Positions 17,163 to 22,558 of a stretch of DNA of 64,000 bases are shown piece after piece (within the stretch, counting starts at the first letter, position 1; the number at the start of each line of letters is the position of its first letter). The notes under the pieces were generated by a model, which was not told the DNA's origin, searched no databases, and saw nothing but the letters and a program-made list of their open reading frames with translations. The position numbers were made by a program, and so were the translations under genes. This DNA is from Vicinamibacterales bacterium. GTDB lineage: Bacteria; Acidobacteriota; Vicinamibacteria; Vicinamibacterales; UBA823. The stretch lies in the NCBI GenBank assembly GCA_965197385.1, contig CBDANA010000007.1, positions 68,054 to 132,053 on the forward strand, in the 5' to 3' direction.

Positions 17163-18356
17163 ATGGCAATTGCTGTAGCCTTAGCTGAAGGAGTCGTTGC
17201 GATGCTGTCTAAACCTCTTGCCCTCGGCGCCCTGGTCCTGGCCGCACTGGTTGCGGTGGGCACAGGCGCCTACCTAGGCGTTCGCCAGAACGATGCCAAT
17301 CTGCAGTTTGCGGCGAAGGTCAGCCCGGAGCGCCCAGCCGATGACGAAACGGCCGAGCCGCTGGCCATCGTCGAAGAAACGGAAACGGTGATCGACGAGT
17401 CCCCGGTGGAGATCGAACCGAAACCGGCCGCGCCTGTGGCGAGGGCCGAGCCGGCGCCGCCGGCCGTTGCCGTGTCAGAACCGGAACCGCTCCCGGCTGA
17501 GCCAGTCGAACCGGCCCCGTCGGTTGCGGTGCCGGCACCGAGACCCGAACTAGTTCAAGCACCAGTCGAAGCCCCAGTCGAGGCAATCGACCGGGGCTTC
17601 GAGGTCGACCAAATTTTCGAAGAAGACGAGATCGGCGGCGTAGCCTCCGTCGAGCCGATTTCCAGCCCGGCGCCGGCGGACGACGCGAACCCGTGGCGGC
17701 AACTCGAGGCGCCGTGGCCCTCTGATGACGATGATGATGATACTGATGCCGGGACCGTCGTCCAGCGAGCGCCGGCTGACACCGATGCCCCGTGGTCGAA
17801 CGTGGCGGACGGCGCCGAACCGGAGCTGCGGTTCGACGAGCTCGTCGTCGCCGCCGATTCGGTGATCGGCCTGCAAATCGAGACACGTGTGAGCAGCGAG
17901 GATGCGCGCGTCGAGGATTCGGTCGACGCCCGGGTGACGCGCGATGTCCTGGTCGACGACCGGGTCGCCGTGCCCGCGGGCGCTCGGCTGCATGGCTCGG
18001 TCGTGCTGGTCGAGCGCGGCGGCCGGATGAGCAAGGGGGCGAGAATCGGCGTCCGGTTCCACACGCTGGTGATGGCGGACAGCACCGAATTGGCGATCGT
18101 CACCGAGACGATCTACCGCGAGGGTGAGGGCCAGGGCGGCCGAAGAGCCAAGGCGATCGGCGGGGCGGCGGTGACTGGCGCCATTCTCGGCGCCATCTTC
18201 GGCGGCAGGCGCGGTGCCGTCCTCGGCGGAAGCGTGGGCGCCGCCGGGAGCACGGCGGGCGTCATAACCGGCGACCGGAACCGCACGACGCTGCTGCCCG
18301 GCATGACGTTCACGATGCGTCTGCTACAGCCTGTCACCGTGCTCGTCGATTGGTAG
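17163..18356 (+). CDS. membrane-anchored hypothetical protein with Pro/Glu-rich linker and C-terminal beta domain plus glycine-zipper segment
   Basis: N-terminal TM helix (LALGALVLAALVAVGTGAYL), a PE/PA-rich linker and a DDDDDD run. The C-terminal region is loosely reminiscent of TrbI/VirB10-type beta domains. A GxxxG-rich stretch follows (GGAAVTGAILGAIFGGRRGAVLGGSVGAAG). An alternative start is at 17202. Confidence 0.6.
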   Translation: MAIAVALAEGVVAMLSKPLALGALVLAALVAVGTGAYLGVRQNDANLQFAAKVSPERPADDETAEPLAIVEETETVIDESPVEIEPKPAAPVARAEPAPPAVAVSEPEPLPAEPVEPAPSVAVPAPRPELVQAPVEAPVEAIDRGFEVDQIFEEDEIGGVASVEPISSPAPADDANPWRQLEAPWPSDDDDDDTDAGTVVQRAPADTDAPWSNVADGAEPELRFDELVVAADSVIGLQIETRVSSEDARVEDSVDARVTRDVLVDDRVAVPAGARLHGSVVLVERGGRMSKGARIGVRFHTLVMADSTELAIVTETIYREGEGQGGRRAKAIGGAAVTGAILGAIFGGRRGAVLGGSVGAAGSTAGVITGDRNRTTLLPGMTFTMRLLQPVTVLVDW

Positions 18357-18385
18357 TGACCTGCCCCCCAGGGTTGTGCCACTGC

Positions 18386-18698
18386 TTATGAGAGAGCTGG
18401 ACTCATTTCTGAGCTCCCAAGCGCTGCCGGCATGATCGCGTCCGGGGCCGGTGGGCGGTAGCCCCGCGCACGGTGCGGCCGCACCGTGTTGTCCTGCCGC
18501 CGCCATCGCTCGATCAAGATCCTGGCTTCCGTCAGGGGATAGAAGATCTCACGGTCCAGGAGTTCGTCGCGGAACTGGCCGTTAAACGATTCGATGTACC
18601 CATTCTCCCATGGGCTCCCCGGCTCGATGAACAGCGTCTGCACCTGTAGGGCCGCGAGCCAGAGTCGGATGAGCTCGGCCGTGAACTCCGGGCCGTTG
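18386..18698 (-). pseudogene. IS3-family transposase, C-terminal (integrase-core) fragment
   Basis: DNGPEFTAELIRLWLAALQVQTLFIEPGSPWENGYIESFNGQFRDELLDREIFY...RWRRQDNTVRPH is the classic rve-domain C-terminus. Confidence 0.88.
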
Positions 18699-18784
18699 TC
18701 GAGGATATGGAGATGACAGGAAGGGCGCCCTCACCCCATCTCCGCATAGTCTCCGTGCAATCACGACAAAGCAGGGAGGCCAGC

Positions 18785-20041
18785 ATGAGACAGGATGAGA
18801 GGCACCACACGTTGGACGACATCTTCGTGGGCATCGATCTGGCGACCCGTCAGCACCAGGTGGTCGTCCTCGATGGGCAGGGACACCGCCTCACGAGCTT
18901 CAAGGTTTCGCATTCTCGAGAGGGGCTGCGCGAGCTCGTGGAGCGCTGCTCGGCCCGTCGAGTCGGCCGGGGACGAGGTACGGTGCACTTCGCGTTCGAG
19001 GCCACCGGACACGTGTGGGAGGCGGTTGGTGCATTCTTTGAGCAGCGCGCGCTTCGGTATCACGTCGTCAATCCGCTCGCGACCTTCCGGGTGCGCGAGG
19101 CTCGGCAGATGGGACGCGACAAGCGAGACCTGACCGACGCAGAGCAGATCGCGCAGCTGCTGCGCACGGGGGTCGTGACCAAGTGCCAGCTCTTGCCCGC
19201 TCGATACATGCAACTGCGGCGAGCCTGGGGCGAGTATCAGCGTCTACGCTGCGAGCGCGCCCGCCTCAAGACCCTGCTCGTGCATCAGCTCTACGGCGTG
19301 TTTCCGGAAATCGTCGGCGAGTGGAAAACCGTCACGGCGCCTGGGTGCCTCGCGGTGCTGCGGGCGGGCTTGCCCCCGCAGGACATCGCGATGCTGACGA
19401 AGCCGGCCTTCATCCGAGTCGTGCAAGAGCACCGGCGGGGACGGCGGATGTGGCGCTTCAAGATTGAGCAAGTCTGGGAGAAGGCCGGGAGGACGGTGGC
19501 GGCGCTCCATGGGCATGAGGCCGCCATGCGTGAAGTGACTCGGCTGGTCGAGCGTCTCGACTTCGTCGGCGACCAACTCGATCGCGTCGCGGGCGAGCTC
19601 CAGACCGACCTCGAGGGGTTTGAGGAGCCGACGTATCTCGCGCCGTTGCCGGGGACCGGGTGGGTCACGATCGCCGGGCTACTCGCCGAGATCGGCCCCT
19701 TTCACCGATTCCGGCACGGCCGGCAGTTAGTGAAGCTCGCCGGCCTGCAGCCGTCGAGACGGGAAAGCGGCCAGCACGCGGGCCGCACGCCGATCAGCAA
19801 GCGCGGCCGGGCGCAGCTGCGCGCCGTGGTCTACATGGCCACGCTGTCGTCCATACGCCATACCCGGCGCCTGAGAGCCCACTACGAGCGCCTCACGCAG
19901 CGCGTCACGCGGCCCCTGCCCCCCATGCAAGCGATCGGGGCCTGCATGACCAAGCTGCTGCACTACGCGTTCGCCGTCGTCCACAACCAAACGGCGTTCG
20001 ACGTCAACCACGTGTGGAGGGATGATCCGATCGCCGCCTAG
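18785..20041 (+). CDS. IS110-family transposase/recombinase (element A; short 5' end, long 3' tail, IS1111-like layout)
   Basis: FVGIDLA...FEATGHVW...DLTDAEQIA DEDD-type N-domain, with C-terminal LPGTGWVTIAGLLAEIG...SGQHAGRTPISKRGRAQLR. The ATG at 18785 is preceded by AGGGAGG. Confidence 0.9.
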   Translation: MRQDERHHTLDDIFVGIDLATRQHQVVVLDGQGHRLTSFKVSHSREGLRELVERCSARRVGRGRGTVHFAFEATGHVWEAVGAFFEQRALRYHVVNPLATFRVREARQMGRDKRDLTDAEQIAQLLRTGVVTKCQLLPARYMQLRRAWGEYQRLRCERARLKTLLVHQLYGVFPEIVGEWKTVTAPGCLAVLRAGLPPQDIAMLTKPAFIRVVQEHRRGRRMWRFKIEQVWEKAGRTVAALHGHEAAMREVTRLVERLDFVGDQLDRVAGELQTDLEGFEEPTYLAPLPGTGWVTIAGLLAEIGPFHRFRHGRQLVKLAGLQPSRRESGQHAGRTPISKRGRAQLRAVVYMATLSSIRHTRRLRAHYERLTQRVTRPLPPMQAIGACMTKLLHYAFAVVHNQTAFDVNHVWRDDPIAA

Positions 20042-20274
20042 AGACCTGAGGCTCCGGCTCCGGCCGGAGAGGAGGCCATGCCGACCGTTGTCCTGCGCCC
20101 TTCGAGTCGAAGACAGCTCGACGCCCGTCCGCCAGGCACCCTCCGCTCCTCGGGTATGAGTCCGGATGACGCACGATGGGCCGGCTCCAGCGAGCCCGTG
20201 CCCGTATCTGTCCCTCGATTGGACAGCCCAACGGCGCCGAGAGCCTTGACGCCCCTATATGTCAAGACGGTCGT
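20042..20274. ncRNA. candidate IS110/IS1111-type non-coding RNA (bridge/seek RNA) region; also holds the junction of the two elements
   Basis: This 233-bp tract between two convergent recombinase genes has no credible ORF. It contains GC-rich palindromes such as CTCCGGCCGGAG. The assignment rests on the known family architecture only. Confidence 0.3.
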
Positions 20275-21360
20275 TCAGGCCGCCAAGTCTGCGGCTTGGC
20301 GCGCTCGGTAGTCTGCCATCACGCGCTGAAAGATCTCGCGGGCGAGAAAGCGTTTAAGACAGCGGATGATCTCCCGTTTGGGCCGCCCTTCAGCGGTGCG
20401 TCGTTCGACGTAGTTGAGGGTTGGTGTGTGGAACCGCATCCGCACGATGACGGCCCGGTGGAGCGCGGCGTTGGCCTGGCGATGACCGCCGCGGTAGAGG
20501 CGGTGGCGCCCCGTCGTCATCCCGGACGAAGCCGGGATGGGGCAGGCCCCGCAAAGCTTGGCGAAGGCGGCTTCAGAATGAATCCGATCGGGGGTGTCGC
20601 CAAAGATGATCAGCAGTTCGGCGGCGGTGTCGGCACCGATGCCGAAGCCCTCACGCAGCGTCGGTGAGGTCTGGGTGGTGAGTCGACTCACGTGACGGTC
20701 GTGGTCCACGATTTCGACGGAGAGAGCGAACCAGCGACGGGCGAGCGCCCGGAGGGTATGTTTCGCCGAGGCGGTCGGCGTATCGATCGTGCCGCAGCGC
20801 CATCCGCGGCAGCGTTTGAGGAGCGCCTGGTCGGCGAGCGGGTTGAGGGTCTCTCGCAGCGCGGGCGGCGCGGTGACGACGATCTGCTTCAGCGTGATCA
20901 TCGCCGAGGTGCGGGCTTTGACCGCCGTCCGGCGCGCGACTTTGAGGTGGCGCATCATCTCGACCGCTCCGTCCGCGGTCTTCGGGATGGCGGTCGATTG
21001 GCCCGCCAGAACCGACCGCGCGGCGGTCTCGGCATCCACGGGGTCGGACTTCCCGGCGATTCGACGTGTGCGCCGGTCGCCTCGGTTCACTTCGAGCACC
21101 TGGTGCCCGGCTCGCCGGACCGCGCGAGTGAGTCCCGCCCCGTAGCTGCCGGTGCCCTCGATGCCGAACGCGGCGATGCGGCCGTGACGCTCGGCCCAGG
21201 TGATCAGCTGTTGGTAGCCGTCTGAGTCGGCGGCACACGATCGATCGTCGAGGCGGACCCCCCTCGTGTCGATCGCCACGGCCACGTGGACGTGCTTGTG
21301 GGTGTCCACGCCGACGATCACCTTCCGCGCGTCAGGCTGGATAGTCCTGTGGTTCGTCAC
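20275..21360 (-). CDS. IS110-family transposase/recombinase (element B; long 5' non-coding end, IS110-like layout)
   Basis: VIVGVDTHKHVHVAVAID...FGIEGTGSYGAGL...KSDPVDAE N-domain, with C-terminal SSGMTTGRHRLYRGGHRQANAALH. The GTG start is preceded by GAGGAGG. Confidence 0.9.
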   Translation of the reverse strand: MTNHRTIQPDARKVIVGVDTHKHVHVAVAIDTRGVRLDDRSCAADSDGYQQLITWAERHGRIAAFGIEGTGSYGAGLTRAVRRAGHQVLEVNRGDRRTRRIAGKSDPVDAETAARSVLAGQSTAIPKTADGAVEMMRHLKVARRTAVKARTSAMITLKQIVVTAPPALRETLNPLADQALLKRCRGWRCGTIDTPTASAKHTLRALARRWFALSVEIVDHDRHVSRLTTQTSPTLREGFGIGADTAAELLIIFGDTPDRIHSEAAFAKLCGACPIPASSGMTTGRHRLYRGGHRQANAALHRAVIVRMRFHTPTLNYVERRTAEGRPKREIIRCLKRFLAREIFQRVMADYRARQAADLAA

Positions 21361-21636
21361 CGGGTGGCCTCCTCGGGTGCTGGTGCGTCGGCCGGATGGG
21401 CGGACAGGACTGTGATGGGTCGACGTTGCAGCAGGCCCCTATTGGGTCACGGCCCATCCGGTCAGACGGGTTGCCGTGTCAATCGCCGACGGACGATGAC
21501 CGACAGTTCAGTAGCCAGGACCGTAGGTCAGTCAACTTGTGGGTCAGGCCAGCGCCCACCGGCACCCACCGGTGTCACTGAGCAACCCCGACAGGCAGGG
21601 GAATCATGCTCACAGACAACTTGGTCATAGCACGCG
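21361..21636 (-). ncRNA. candidate bridge-RNA-encoding left end of IS110 element B
   Basis: 276-bp non-coding tract between the recombinase start and the IS3 junction. It contains a perfect 10-bp long-range pairing, CCGGATGGGC (21392..21401) with GCCCATCCGG (21452..21461). Confidence 0.35.
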
Positions 21637-22462
21637 GACCGCAGGTGCGCCGGGACGCCGTGGGTGACGAAACGCTGGGCCAGCGTCTCGAGTACCTCCA
21701 TCGATCGCACCCACCGGGCGACCACGATTGCCAAGCATTCCCGCGAATACTCCTCGACGATGGTGAGGATCTTCAGCGGCCGGCCGGCCTGCGTCCGGTC
21801 CGCCACGAAGTCATACGCCCAGACGTGGTGGCGATACGCGGGGCGGCGGCGAATGCACGAGCCATCCGCGAGCCACCGCCGGCCCCGGTTCGGCTGTTGC
21901 TGCGGCACTTTCAGCCCCTGCTCGTCGCCACAGCCGCTCCACGCGCTTGTGATGCACCGCCCACCCGTCCCCACGTAAGCGCCCGGTGATGCGCCGAGAG
22001 CCATACCGCCCATCCCGCGTCGCCAATGCGATCATCCGAGCCCCCAGGCGCGGCTCGTCCACCGGCACCATGGCCTGATCCCGAGGGGTCGACCGCGCGT
22101 GGCCGATCACGCGACACGCCCGCCTCTCCGACACGCGCAACTGGCGGCGGACGTGCGCCCCCGCCTGCCGGCGTCGGGGCGGGCTCAGAAGTTTCCCGAG
22201 GGCACCTCTTTGAGAATCGCGTGGTCGAGCGCCTGGTCCCCACCAGCTTCTTCAGCTGGGTATTCTCTCGCTCGAGGGCCTGCAGCCGCTTGGCCTGGTC
22301 GAGCCGCAAGCCGCCGTATTCCTTCCGCCCCCGAGAGTACGTCTGCTCGCTGATCCCGAGCGTCTTACAAACCTGCGGCGTCCGCAGGCCTCGGCCCAGC
22401 TCCACTGCCGCCTGCCGAAGCTTCGTGATGATCTGTGCCGTGCTGGACCGCTTTCTGGGCAT
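21637..22462 (-). pseudogene. IS3-family transposase, OrfA and N-terminal OrfB fragment, multiply frameshifted
   Basis: MPRKRSSTAQIITKLRQAAVELG...ISEQTYSRGRKEYGGLRLDQAKRLQALERENTQLKKLV is the OrfA HTH/leucine zipper. OrfB pieces (RVSERRACRVIGHARST; LKVPQQQPNRGRRWLADGS...VWAYDFV...ECLAIVV) lie in three frames, which implies at least two non-programmed frameshifts. Confidence 0.85.
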
Positions 22463-22558
22463 CTTGCCGCCTGCTGCAGCGCCCGAATGCTAACGCTCGG
22501 GCTGGTTCAGTTCCAGGGGGCAAGGTCACTAGCCGGGAGGTCAGGAACCCGTCTCCCG

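What the first reader, a model, noticed from the sequence alone, without database searches (positions are those of the whole stretch)
18357..22528. Nested insertion: degenerate IS3-family element split cleanly by a tail-to-tail pair of different IS110-family elements
What the sequence shows:
- TG...CA imperfect inverted repeats at 18357 and 22528 bracket an IS3-type OrfA/OrfB gene on the minus strand.
- The integrase-core reading frame breaks at 21637 (...VPAHLRS) and resumes at 18698 (DNGPEFTAELI...).
- Deleting 18699..21636 (2938 bp) restores HLRS|DNGPEF in frame with no target duplication longer than 1 nt.
- The inserted block holds two dissimilar IS110-type recombinase genes in convergent orientation.
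- One has a short 5' end and a long 3' tail. The other has a 276-bp 5' non-coding end.
- The IS3 gene also has at least two non-programmed frameshifts.
- The composite sits immediately after the stop codon of gene 17163..18356.

Established knowledge: IS110-family elements lack classical inverted repeats, usually make no direct repeats, and often target other repeats or IS ends.

Inference: either two sequential site-specific insertions occurred (one element targeting the end of the other), or both share a hot spot.
Basis: partly seen in the sequence, partly recalled or inferred. Interest (0 to 1): 0.6.

Follow-up and report, generated by a model that had tools for sequence, protein, structure and literature searches.

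The report
Three-deep nest of insertion sequences
A dead IS3-type jumping gene is split at its catalytic aspartate codon by an RNA-guided IS110-type element, and that element carries a second, unrelated IS110-type element in its own right end. It is a clear example of known targeting behaviour, not a new kind of system.

Summary
A frameshifted IS3-family element (18357..22528, minus strand) is split at the second catalytic D codon by a 2,935-bp block (18701..21635) holding two convergent IS110-family genes.

The block is not two elements lying tail to tail. It is a nest.
- Element A (1,568 bp, plus strand) sits in the IS3 gene.
- Element B (1,367 bp, 20248..21614, minus strand) sits inside A, 21 bp from A's right tip.
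- Solo B copies, and A copies with an uninterrupted tail, prove this.

Both elements carry guide-RNA-like non-coding regions.
- A's 3' region contains CCGUUGUCC, identical to the DNA left of A in relatives from several phyla. These relatives almost always sit antisense in the S/T-D-N-G codons of rve transposase genes.
- B is 42% identical to ISEc21. Its 5' guide CAAGUUGAC matches A's end at 8 of 9 bases. Guide and flank covary across 58 relatives.

An IS110 element that targets the IS3 D codon is already published (ISEc21). These are new members of a known kind. A's lineage is unnamed and reaches the same site by a different route.

The parts
18357..22528 (-). IS3-family insertion sequence. 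It is a pseudo-element of 1,237 bp once the insert is removed. It has OrfA/OrfB, two non-programmed frameshifts and TG...CA imperfect inverted repeats.
   Evidence: Related full copies are in L005 and L006.
18357..18700 (-). 3' part of the IS3 element. It runs from the second catalytic D codon (GAC, 18698-18700) through DNGPEF... and the rve_3 region to the right inverted repeat.
   Evidence: plus manual indexing.
21636..22528 (-). 5' part of the IS3 element: left inverted repeat, OrfA (HTH_Tnp_1), and the start of OrfB up to ...VPAHLRS.
18701..21635 (+). Element A, outer limits. It is an IS110-family element of 1,568 bp of its own sequence (18701..20247 plus 21615..21635), antisense to the IS3 gene. 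CG is present at both junctions.
   Evidence: Ends were defined against L125 (99% identical), L004-L008 and L010-L012.
18785..20041 (+). Element A recombinase gene, 418 aa.
   Evidence: Pfam PF01548 plus PF02371. NCBIfam NF033542 at 198 bits, cut-off 140. The identical protein is encoded in L003.
20042..20247 (+). Element A 3' non-coding region, a predicted two-domain bridge/seek RNA. Domain 1 carries the left target guide CCGUUGUCC at 20085..20093. Domain 2 carries the right donor guide CCUCG at 20213..20217.
   Evidence: Conserved fold and guide in relatives down to 53% protein identity. RDG covaries with the third base of the left end. L122 carries a retargeted guide.
21615..21635 (+). Displaced right tip of element A (GACAACTTGGTCATAGCACGC). 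Together with TT at 20246-47 it forms the conserved TTGACA box, which B splits.
20248..21614 (-). Element B, an ISEc21-like IS110-family element of 1,367 bp (TGTGAGC...GGGGCGTC on its own strand). The junction is ambiguous by the 3 nt GAC (20248-50 and 21615-17).
   Evidence: Solo copies L001 (100% identical), L002 (99.9%) and L017 (95.8%). The empty site is seen in L125.
20275..21360 (-). Element B recombinase gene, 361 aa, GTG start.
   Evidence: Pfam and NCBIfam hits. 42% identical to ISEc21 Tnp (E = 6e-88) and 46.5% to ISBli6.
21361..21614 (-). Element B 5' non-coding region, a predicted seek/bridge RNA. The left target guide CAAGUUGAC is at 21539..21531 and the right target guide CUACUGA at 21514..21508. 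They sit on the two sides of an internal loop closed by a long covarying stem.
   Evidence: The layout is homologous to the ISEc21 left end.

Best explanation
This is a three-level nest made by two successive RNA-guided, site-specific insertions.

Step 1. Element A is an unnamed IS110-family lineage with a 418-aa recombinase and its structured non-coding RNA downstream of the gene. It inserted antisense into an IS3-family transposase gene, between the S and D codons of HLRS|DNGPEF. [quoted passage not shown] A's RNA carries CCGUUGUCC. This is the same sense as the DNA left of the insertion (CCGTTGTC-G), so it can pair with the opposite strand. This is how the left target guide of an IS110 bridge RNA works.

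Step 2. Element B is an ISEc21-cluster IS110 element with its guide RNA upstream of the gene. It inserted into A's right end, 21 bp from the tip. Its guide CAAGUUGAC matches the site at 8 of 9 bases (CAAGTTGTC|AAGG). The right-hand side of the site matches poorly. The site is therefore near-cognate and not B's preferred target (CAA[C/G]TTGAC|A[G/A]T).

Consequences.
- B splits the conserved TTGACA box that lies 17 nt from A's tip. This box is probably the -35 of the promoter formed when A circularises.
- B moves A's right tip 1.37 kb away.
- A's gene, both RNA domains and both A ends remain intact.
- The IS3 host is dead: catalytic codon split, plus two frameshifts.

Shown: the anatomy, the element boundaries, the empty sites, the guide-flank identities and the covariation.
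Inferred: that the RNAs are made and guide the recombinases, the promoter role of TTGACA, and the order of events beyond A before B at this locus or in its ancestor.
For: Boundaries:
- Solo B copies L001, L002 and L017.
- Uninterrupted A tails in L125 (99% identical) and L004-L008.

Target of element A:
- Relatives down to 53% identity sit at CCRTTGTC|GG and all keep CCGUUGUC in the 3' non-coding region. They come from Acidobacteriota, Planctomycetota, Eisenbacteria and Methylomirabilota MAGs, one NCBI assembly whose protein a source labels Gemmatimonadota, and metagenome contigs of unknown organism. Most lie between an rve_3 and an rve gene fragment on the opposite strand.
- Two relatives sit in non-transposase genes at the same DNA motif...WS|DNGGFF (L004) and histidine-kinase VT|DNGPGF (L008). 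Recognition is therefore of DNA sequence, not of gene type.
- L122 sits in a DQG-type gene (flank CCCTGATCC). Its guide has changed to CCUUGGUCC, which pairs 9 of 9 if wobble pairs are allowed.
- The donor guide NCUCG covaries with the third base of the left end: AGG, AGT or AGA.

Element B:
- 42% identical to ISEc21 Tnp.
- ISEc21 DNA shows the same layout. Its left guide CACAGCGAU equals its left flank, and its right guide CCCUGGA is the reverse complement of TC|CAGGG.
- Across 58 relatives the left guide matches its own flank at 6.7 of 9 bases, against a permuted mean of 4.95 and a maximum of 5.67 in 2,000 permutations. The right guide matches at 5.03 of 7, against 4.23 and a maximum of 4.69.
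- 14 of 25 pairs of the enclosing stem show compensatory changes.

Literature:
- ISEc21 targets the codons around the second D of IS3-family transposases and needs its non-coding-region RNA (PMC11187229).
- Guide polarity rules for IS110 bridge RNAs (PMC11208160).
Against: - No RNA, circle-junction or transposition data exist for these elements.
- No Rfam family matched either non-coding region.
- A's right target guide could not be identified convincingly.
- A's left guide and its target are nearly invariant, so covariation support for it rests mainly on one relative (L122).
- B's right-hand match at this site is poor, only 1 base beyond the junction.
- The second composite, L003, means the A-B junction in the window may not have formed at this locus.
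Confidence: 0.85

Rival explanations
1. The 2.9-kb block arrived here as one unit. B entered A at some other locus. The composite A-with-B was then mobilised by A's recombinase and guide RNA and inserted into this IS3 copy, with B as passive cargo.
For: - L003 carries the same A/B junction, with A 99.9% identical, inside a different IS3-family element that is about 70% identical.
- In the window A's gene, both RNA domains and both A termini are intact.
- Cargo flanked by IS ends can be moved by such systems (PMC11187229, abstract).
Against: - B is site-specific, so two independent hits at the same A position would give the same junction.
- L125 shows the L003-type IS3 carrying A without B, so B could have entered afterwards.
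- B splits A's putative junction-promoter -35 box.
- The B copy in L003 is full of deletions, so its history or its assembly is unclear.
Confidence: 0.35
2. Two IS110 elements inserted independently into the same IS3 hot spot, or one at the exact outer end of the other, and they lie tail to tail with a boundary somewhere in 20042..20274.
For: - The genes are convergent.
- No IS3 sequence lies between them.
Against: - The 21 bp at 21615..21635, next to B's 5' end, is absent from solo B copies.
- It is the conserved right tip of A-type elements.
- A's tail reads continuously across the B site in seven independent loci.
Confidence: 0.02
3. The arrangement is an assembly chimera of repeated IS copies and not a real genomic structure.
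For: - The source appears to be a metagenome-derived assembly rich in IS copies.
- L003 shows a suspicious pattern of deletions without substitutions.
Against: - Every junction in the window is exact to the base against independent contigs from other samples and genomes (L001, L002, L125, L005).
- Removing B and then A restores A's tail and the IS3 reading frame precisely.
Confidence: 0.03

Closest known systems
ISEc21 (IS110 family; Siddiquee et al. 2024, PMC11187229)
   Same: - For B: homologous recombinase (42% identity), non-coding region upstream of the gene, homologous right end (TTGAC..TAGRRGGGCGTC), and the same guide layout of left guide, small hairpin, right guide and CUGUCGG.
- For A: the same class of target, the codons at the second D of IS3-family transposases.
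   Different: - B's guide is retargeted to CAAGTTGAC instead of the IS3 sequence CACAGCGAT.
- Its more distant relatives (57-76% identity) hit another IS3 site...GD(S/C)(Y/F/W)D|NA.
- A is unrelated to ISEc21 beyond family level (about 25% identity).
- A has its non-coding region downstream of the gene.
- A inserts antisense, one codon upstream (S|D), whereas ISEc21 inserts in sense orientation after the D codon (HSD|QG).
IS621 bridge RNA system (Durrant et al. 2024, PMC11208160; Hiraizumi et al. 2024, PMC11208158)
   Same: - A DEDD recombinase paired with a structured non-coding RNA.
- An internal loop that carries a left guide of the same sense as the left target and a right guide complementary to the right target.
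- A separate donor-binding part.
- A promoter split across the element ends.
   Different: - The junction or core bases differ from IS621's CT.
- A places the RNA in the right end.
- Nothing here was tested biochemically.
- A is 27-37% identical to IS621 over two local segments only, and B about 24% over most of its length.
IS1111-group elements with a downstream seekRNA (ISEc11, ISPa11, ISKpn4; also IS4321/IS5075, which target transposon inverted repeats)
   Same: - A has a short left end and a long right end that holds the RNA.
- A has short sub-terminal inverted repeats (TATGxx) that covary between its two ends in relatives.
- Like IS4321/IS5075, A preys on another mobile element.
   Different: - A's recombinase is 418 aa, against 330-350 aa for IS1111-type.
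- A's repeats are about 6 bp, against the 7-17 bp that defines the group.
- No phylogeny was run.
- The best hit in the partial ISfinder set I read is IS650 at 27%.

Membership tests
IS3 family (host element) | DDE (rve) transposase that matches the family model above its cut-off | tested here: met
   The joined and frame-repaired OrfB scores 184.5 bits against NF033516, cut-off 160. The intact L005 relative scores 216 bits.
IS3 family (host element) | Two overlapping ORFs (OrfA with HTH, OrfB with rve) and terminal inverted repeats ending TG...CA | tested here: met
   HTH_Tnp_1 in OrfA. A -1 frame relation between OrfA and OrfB in L005. TGACC.../...GGTCA termini shared by three copies.
IS3 family (host element) | Short direct repeats of the target at both ends (usually 3-5 bp) | tested here: not met
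   No direct repeat in the window, L005 or L006. This does not affect the main finding.
IS110 family (elements A and B) | DEDD/RuvC-like N-terminal domain plus Transposase_20 C-terminal domain | tested here: met
   Both have PF01548 and PF02371. NF033542 scores 198 bits (A) and 159 bits (B), cut-off 140.
IS110 family (elements A and B) | No classical terminal inverted repeats, site-specific insertion, little or no target duplication | tested here: met
   Exact empty sites are known for both. There are only 2-3 nt of junction identity: CG for A, GAC for B.
IS110 family (elements A and B) | Bridge/seek RNA in the long non-coding end whose loops match the target and donor flanks | tested here: met
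   This is met at sequence and covariation level only.
- B.
- A.
Expression and function were not tested.
IS110 family (elements A and B) | Circular intermediate with a promoter assembled across the abutted ends | not testable with these tools
   Only the sequence is suggestive.
- A: TTGACA, 17 nt, GAGGAT across the right-end/left-end join.
- B: TTGACA, 18 nt, CATGAT.
These spacings were counted by hand.
ISEc21 cluster of the IS110 family (element B) | Recombinase of 345-385 aa related to TnpEc21, non-coding region upstream, homologous seekRNA | tested here: met
   361 aa. 42% identical to TnpEc21 and 46.5% to ISBli6. The left-end guide region aligns with that of ISEc21.
ISEc21 cluster of the IS110 family (element B) | Target is the second-D codon region of IS3-family transposase genes | tested here: not met
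   B and its relatives of at least 74% identity sit at CAA(C/G)TTGAC|A.. and not in IS3 genes. More distant relatives sit at the YD|NA site of IS3 genes.
IS1111 group (element A, considered) | Long non-coding region downstream of the recombinase gene | tested here: met
   A has 84 bp upstream and 227 bp downstream of the gene.
IS1111 group (element A, considered) | Sub-terminal inverted repeats of 7-17 bp | tested here: inconclusive
   Only a TATGxx repeat of about 6 bp near both ends. It covaries in L010, L012 and L118 (by eye).
IS1111 group (element A, considered) | Recombinase of 330-350 aa that clusters with IS1111 transposases | tested here: inconclusive
   A's recombinase is 418 aa. No tree was built. 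Of 12 reference proteins compared, IS650 is best at 27% over the full length. No IS1111 sequence was in the set.

The most novel reading that the evidence does not exclude
Element A represents a widespread, unnamed IS110-family lineage found in several phyla.
- Its bridge RNA lies downstream of the gene.
- Its left guide has stayed fixed on the antisense strand of the (S/T)-D-N-G codons of rve-type transposases (IS3 and IS481 families). It would thus be a dedicated parasite of other insertion sequences that inactivates them.
- It reached the same catalytic codon as ISEc21 independently.
- The 2.9-kb A-with-B composite would still be mobile, which would make it a natural case of an IS110 element carrying another complete IS110 element as cargo.
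Probability: 0.3. Interest if true: 0.5.

Novelty: new member of a known kind. Interest (0 to 1): 0.33.

Why it matters
- It gives two natural, sequence-defined guide and target pairs for RNA-guided IS110 recombinases.
- One pair comes from a lineage absent from the part of the ISfinder reference set examined here. Motif searches of the whole set found nothing, and 12 proteins were compared directly.
- Two unrelated IS110 lineages have converged on the same invariant catalytic codon of IS3-type transposases. Such codons are dependable landing pads because the host IS cannot mutate them away.
- The family alignment documents natural retargeting of guides: B's lineage from the IS3 YD|NA site to CAAGTTGAC, and L122 from DNG-type to DQG-type targets.
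- This is useful background for engineering bridge recombinases and for annotating IS-rich soil genomes. It does not change the current understanding of the mechanism.

Tried and rejected
- Rfam scans found no bridge or seek RNA family. I scanned 17.5-23.5 kb at E up to 1 and the whole window at gathering score. The only hit was a sub-threshold sar match inside ORF 17163..18356. No tRNA was found.
- Neither element has another copy in the window.
- I searched the ISfinder protein set in the supplement of PMC11187229 for A-specific motifs and found none. Of 12 references compared, the best hit was IS650 at 27%.
- I tried to find A's right target guide. The candidates GUCCG and CCUCCGCUCC do not track the right flanks across relatives, and the second is more likely a stem strand.
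- I tried to identify what B's preferred target TCAACTTGAC|AGTGCC is. The flanks are non-coding and partly repeated, with no conserved ORF.
- I looked for direct repeats around the IS3 element and found none.
- Window-wide counts of near matches to either target 12-mer are not above chance. The argument therefore rests on junction anatomy and family comparison, not on motif enrichment.
- I considered and rejected the tail-to-tail, shared-hot-spot model and an assembly chimera.

Full report
**Observation**

The stretch 18357..22528 is an IS3-family insertion sequence on the minus strand.
- It begins TGACCTGCCCCC and ends GGGGCAAGGTCA. These are imperfect inverted repeats.
- The same termini bound two related copies in other genomic contexts, L005 and L006.
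- The pieces hit HTH_Tnp_1, rve and rve_3.
- Reading the minus strand, HLRS ends at 21636 and DNGPEF starts at 18700.
- Removing 18701..21635 (2,935 bp) restores HLRSDNGPEF.
- CG is present at both junctions.
- The joined, frame-repaired OrfB passes the NCBIfam IS3 model at 184.5 bits, cut-off 160.
- Comparison with the intact L005 relative confirms two non-programmed frameshifts. One is in OrfA after LKKLV and one in OrfB after ERLWRRAG.
- The IS3 end directly follows the TAG stop of ORF 17163..18356. That ORF has no family match.

**Anatomy of the insert**

Both inserted genes are IS110-family recombinases. They are only about 25% identical to each other.

Looking up the exact proteins found other copies in an ENA metagenome assembly.
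- Element B occurs alone in L001 and L002, at 100% and 99.9% identity. A 95.8% copy is in L017.
- These copies share exactly TGTGAGC...GGGGCGTC, which corresponds to window 20248..21614.
- The 21 bp between B's 5' end and the IS3 sequence (21615..21635) is therefore not part of B.

A scan of reference genomes with protein A gave relatives in Vicinamibacterales MAGs.
- Their tails read without a break...GGCGCCGAGAGCCTTGACAACTTGTTCATAGCACGCG followed by flank.
- A 99%-identical copy, L125, reads ...GAGAGCCTTGACAACTTGGTCATAGCACGCG. That is exactly the window sequence with B removed.

The structure is therefore IS3 containing A containing B. Element A is 18701..20247 plus 21615..21635 (1,568 bp). 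Element B is a 1,367-bp insert, with its junction ambiguous by 3 nt.

**What element A recognises**

In the window and in most related loci, A-type elements lie antisense inside rve-type transposase genes. An rve_3 fragment lies upstream and an rve or HTH fragment downstream, both on the opposite strand. These loci are L003, L005-L007, L009-L012, L114-L122 and L125. Their sources are Acidobacteriota, Planctomycetota, Eisenbacteria and Methylomirabilota MAGs, one NCBI assembly whose protein a source labels Gemmatimonadota, and metagenome contigs of unknown organism.
- The left flank is always CC(G/A)TT(G/A)TC, and the element follows.
- Two relatives sit in unrelated genes at the same DNA motif. 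L004 sits at ...WS|DNGGFF. L008 sits in a histidine-kinase ATPase box at VT|DNGPGF. The recognition is therefore of DNA sequence.
- Every relative keeps CCGUUGUC in the region downstream of the gene. It lies on the 5' side of an internal loop closed by GGAGAGGAGG/CCUCCGCUCC.
- By the published polarity rule, a left target guide has the sense of the left target (PMC11208160). This segment fits that role.
- L122 lies in a DQG-type gene (flank CCCTGATCC). Its guide is CCUUGGUCC, which pairs fully if wobble pairs are allowed.
- A second domain (GUCCGG...UUGGAC) holds NCUCG, which tracks the third base of the left end: AGG, AGT or AGA. This is what a right donor guide would do.
- I could not pin down a right target guide.

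**What element B recognises**

B's recombinase is 42% identical to that of ISEc21 (E = 6e-88) and 46.5% to ISBli6. The ISEc21 DNA from plasmid pMAR2 gives a reference layout.
- ISEc21 sits at HSD|QG of an IS3-family gene.
- Its left-end segment CACAGCGAU equals its left flank.
- Its segment CCCUGGA is the reverse complement of TC|CAGGG.
- Its right end resembles B's.

A metagenome scan gave 80 B relatives.
- In the aligned left ends, the segment homologous to B's CAAGUUGAC matches each element's own left flank at 6.7 of 9 bases. The permuted mean is 4.95 and the maximum over 2,000 permutations is 5.67.
- The right guide matches at 5.03 of 7 bases, against 4.23 and a maximum of 4.69.
- A long stem with 14 of 25 compensatory pairs encloses the order left guide, small hairpin, right guide.
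- Relatives at 57-76% identity sit in IS3-family genes after ...GD(S/C)(Y/F/W)D|NA.
- The subclade that holds B sits at CAA(C/G)TTGAC|A(G/A)T.
- In the window the site is CAAGTTGTC|AAGG. That is 8 of 9 for the left guide and almost no match for the right guide, so the site is near-cognate.

**Consequences**

- B lies 3' of both RNA domains of A.
- B splits a TTGACA box that sits 17 nt from the right tip in most A relatives.
- Junction promoters are described for ISEc21 and IS621. By analogy I infer this box is the -35 of A's circle-junction promoter.
- A's gene, RNA domains and termini are intact.
- The IS3 host is inactivated.

**History**

L003 carries the same A/B junction inside a different IS3-family element (about 70% identical). 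A there is 99.9% identical, and B is riddled with deletions. L125 shows that IS3 type carrying A without B. Either the composite moved as a unit or B struck A twice. I cannot decide between these. I give the first option about one chance in three for the window copy.

**Comparison with what is known**

- Siddiquee et al. 2024 already report an IS110-family element whose RNA directs it to the second-D codon of IS3-family transposases (ISEc21; PMC11187229).
- Bridge RNAs are established for the family (PMC11208160).
- B is a retargeted member of the ISEc21 cluster.
- A is a new, unnamed lineage. Its best match among the 12 reference proteins compared is IS650 at 27%. Motif searches of the full ISfinder supplement found nothing. 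Family models name it only as an IS110-family transposase. The protein search shows it is widespread (190 clusters), and the only family-level name any source gives is 'IS110 family transposase'.
- A has an IS1111-like layout and hits the same codon region from the opposite strand.

**Verdict**

The interpretation needs correcting from 'tail-to-tail pair' to 'nested'. The mechanism is the known RNA-guided one, and novelty is modest.

Noticed in passing
window 17564..17629 (-): An Rfam match to sar RNA (RF00262) at 39.1 bits, below the gathering score of 43 (E = 2e-5). It lies inside ORF 17163..18356 and is probably chance.
   Followed up: no
window 17163..18356 (+): A 397-aa ORF with no Pfam or NCBIfam match. 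It has an N-terminal hydrophobic segment, a Pro/Glu/Asp-rich low-complexity middle and a Gly-rich C-terminus. Its stop codon abuts the IS3 end.
   Followed up: partly
L003 7734..8462: In the second IS3-A-B composite, B shows about a dozen deletions of 1-50 bp and almost no substitutions, while the adjacent A is 99.9% identical. This could be real decay or long-read assembly error.
   Followed up: partly
L045-L113 (for example L055 1235, L084 1247): Most B relatives at 57-76% identity are inserted in IS3-family transposase genes right after ...GD(S/C)(Y/F/W)D, before NA of the YDNA motif. This is a second conserved IS3 landing site, distinct from the ISEc21 site.
   Followed up: partly
L004 about 2914 and L008 about 2914: A-type elements are inserted in non-transposase genes at the same DNA motif. 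One is an unknown gene (...WS|DNGGFF). The other is a histidine-kinase ATPase box (VT|DNGPGF).
   Followed up: yes
L034-L049, L017, L001 (flanks): The preferred target of the B subclade is TCAACTTGAC|A(G/A)TGCC. It lies in non-coding flanks, some of them repeated, of unknown nature.
   Followed up: partly
L038 1750..1790: The right flank of a B-like element contains a second right-end remnant followed by the start of a left end (GTCTTGACATATAGGGGCGTC|TGTG). This suggests tandem or nested B-type copies.
   Followed up: no
L009, L013, L015, L019 (Vicinamibacterales MAGs): Further truncated or interrupted combinations of A-like and B-like elements. Examples are A interrupted by 1.2 kb in L009, and a B-like left end fused to the middle of A in L015. 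These genomes hold dense IS-in-IS debris.
   Followed up: no
window 18357 and 22528; L005; L006: No target-site direct repeats flank this IS3-family element in any of three copies.
   Followed up: partly
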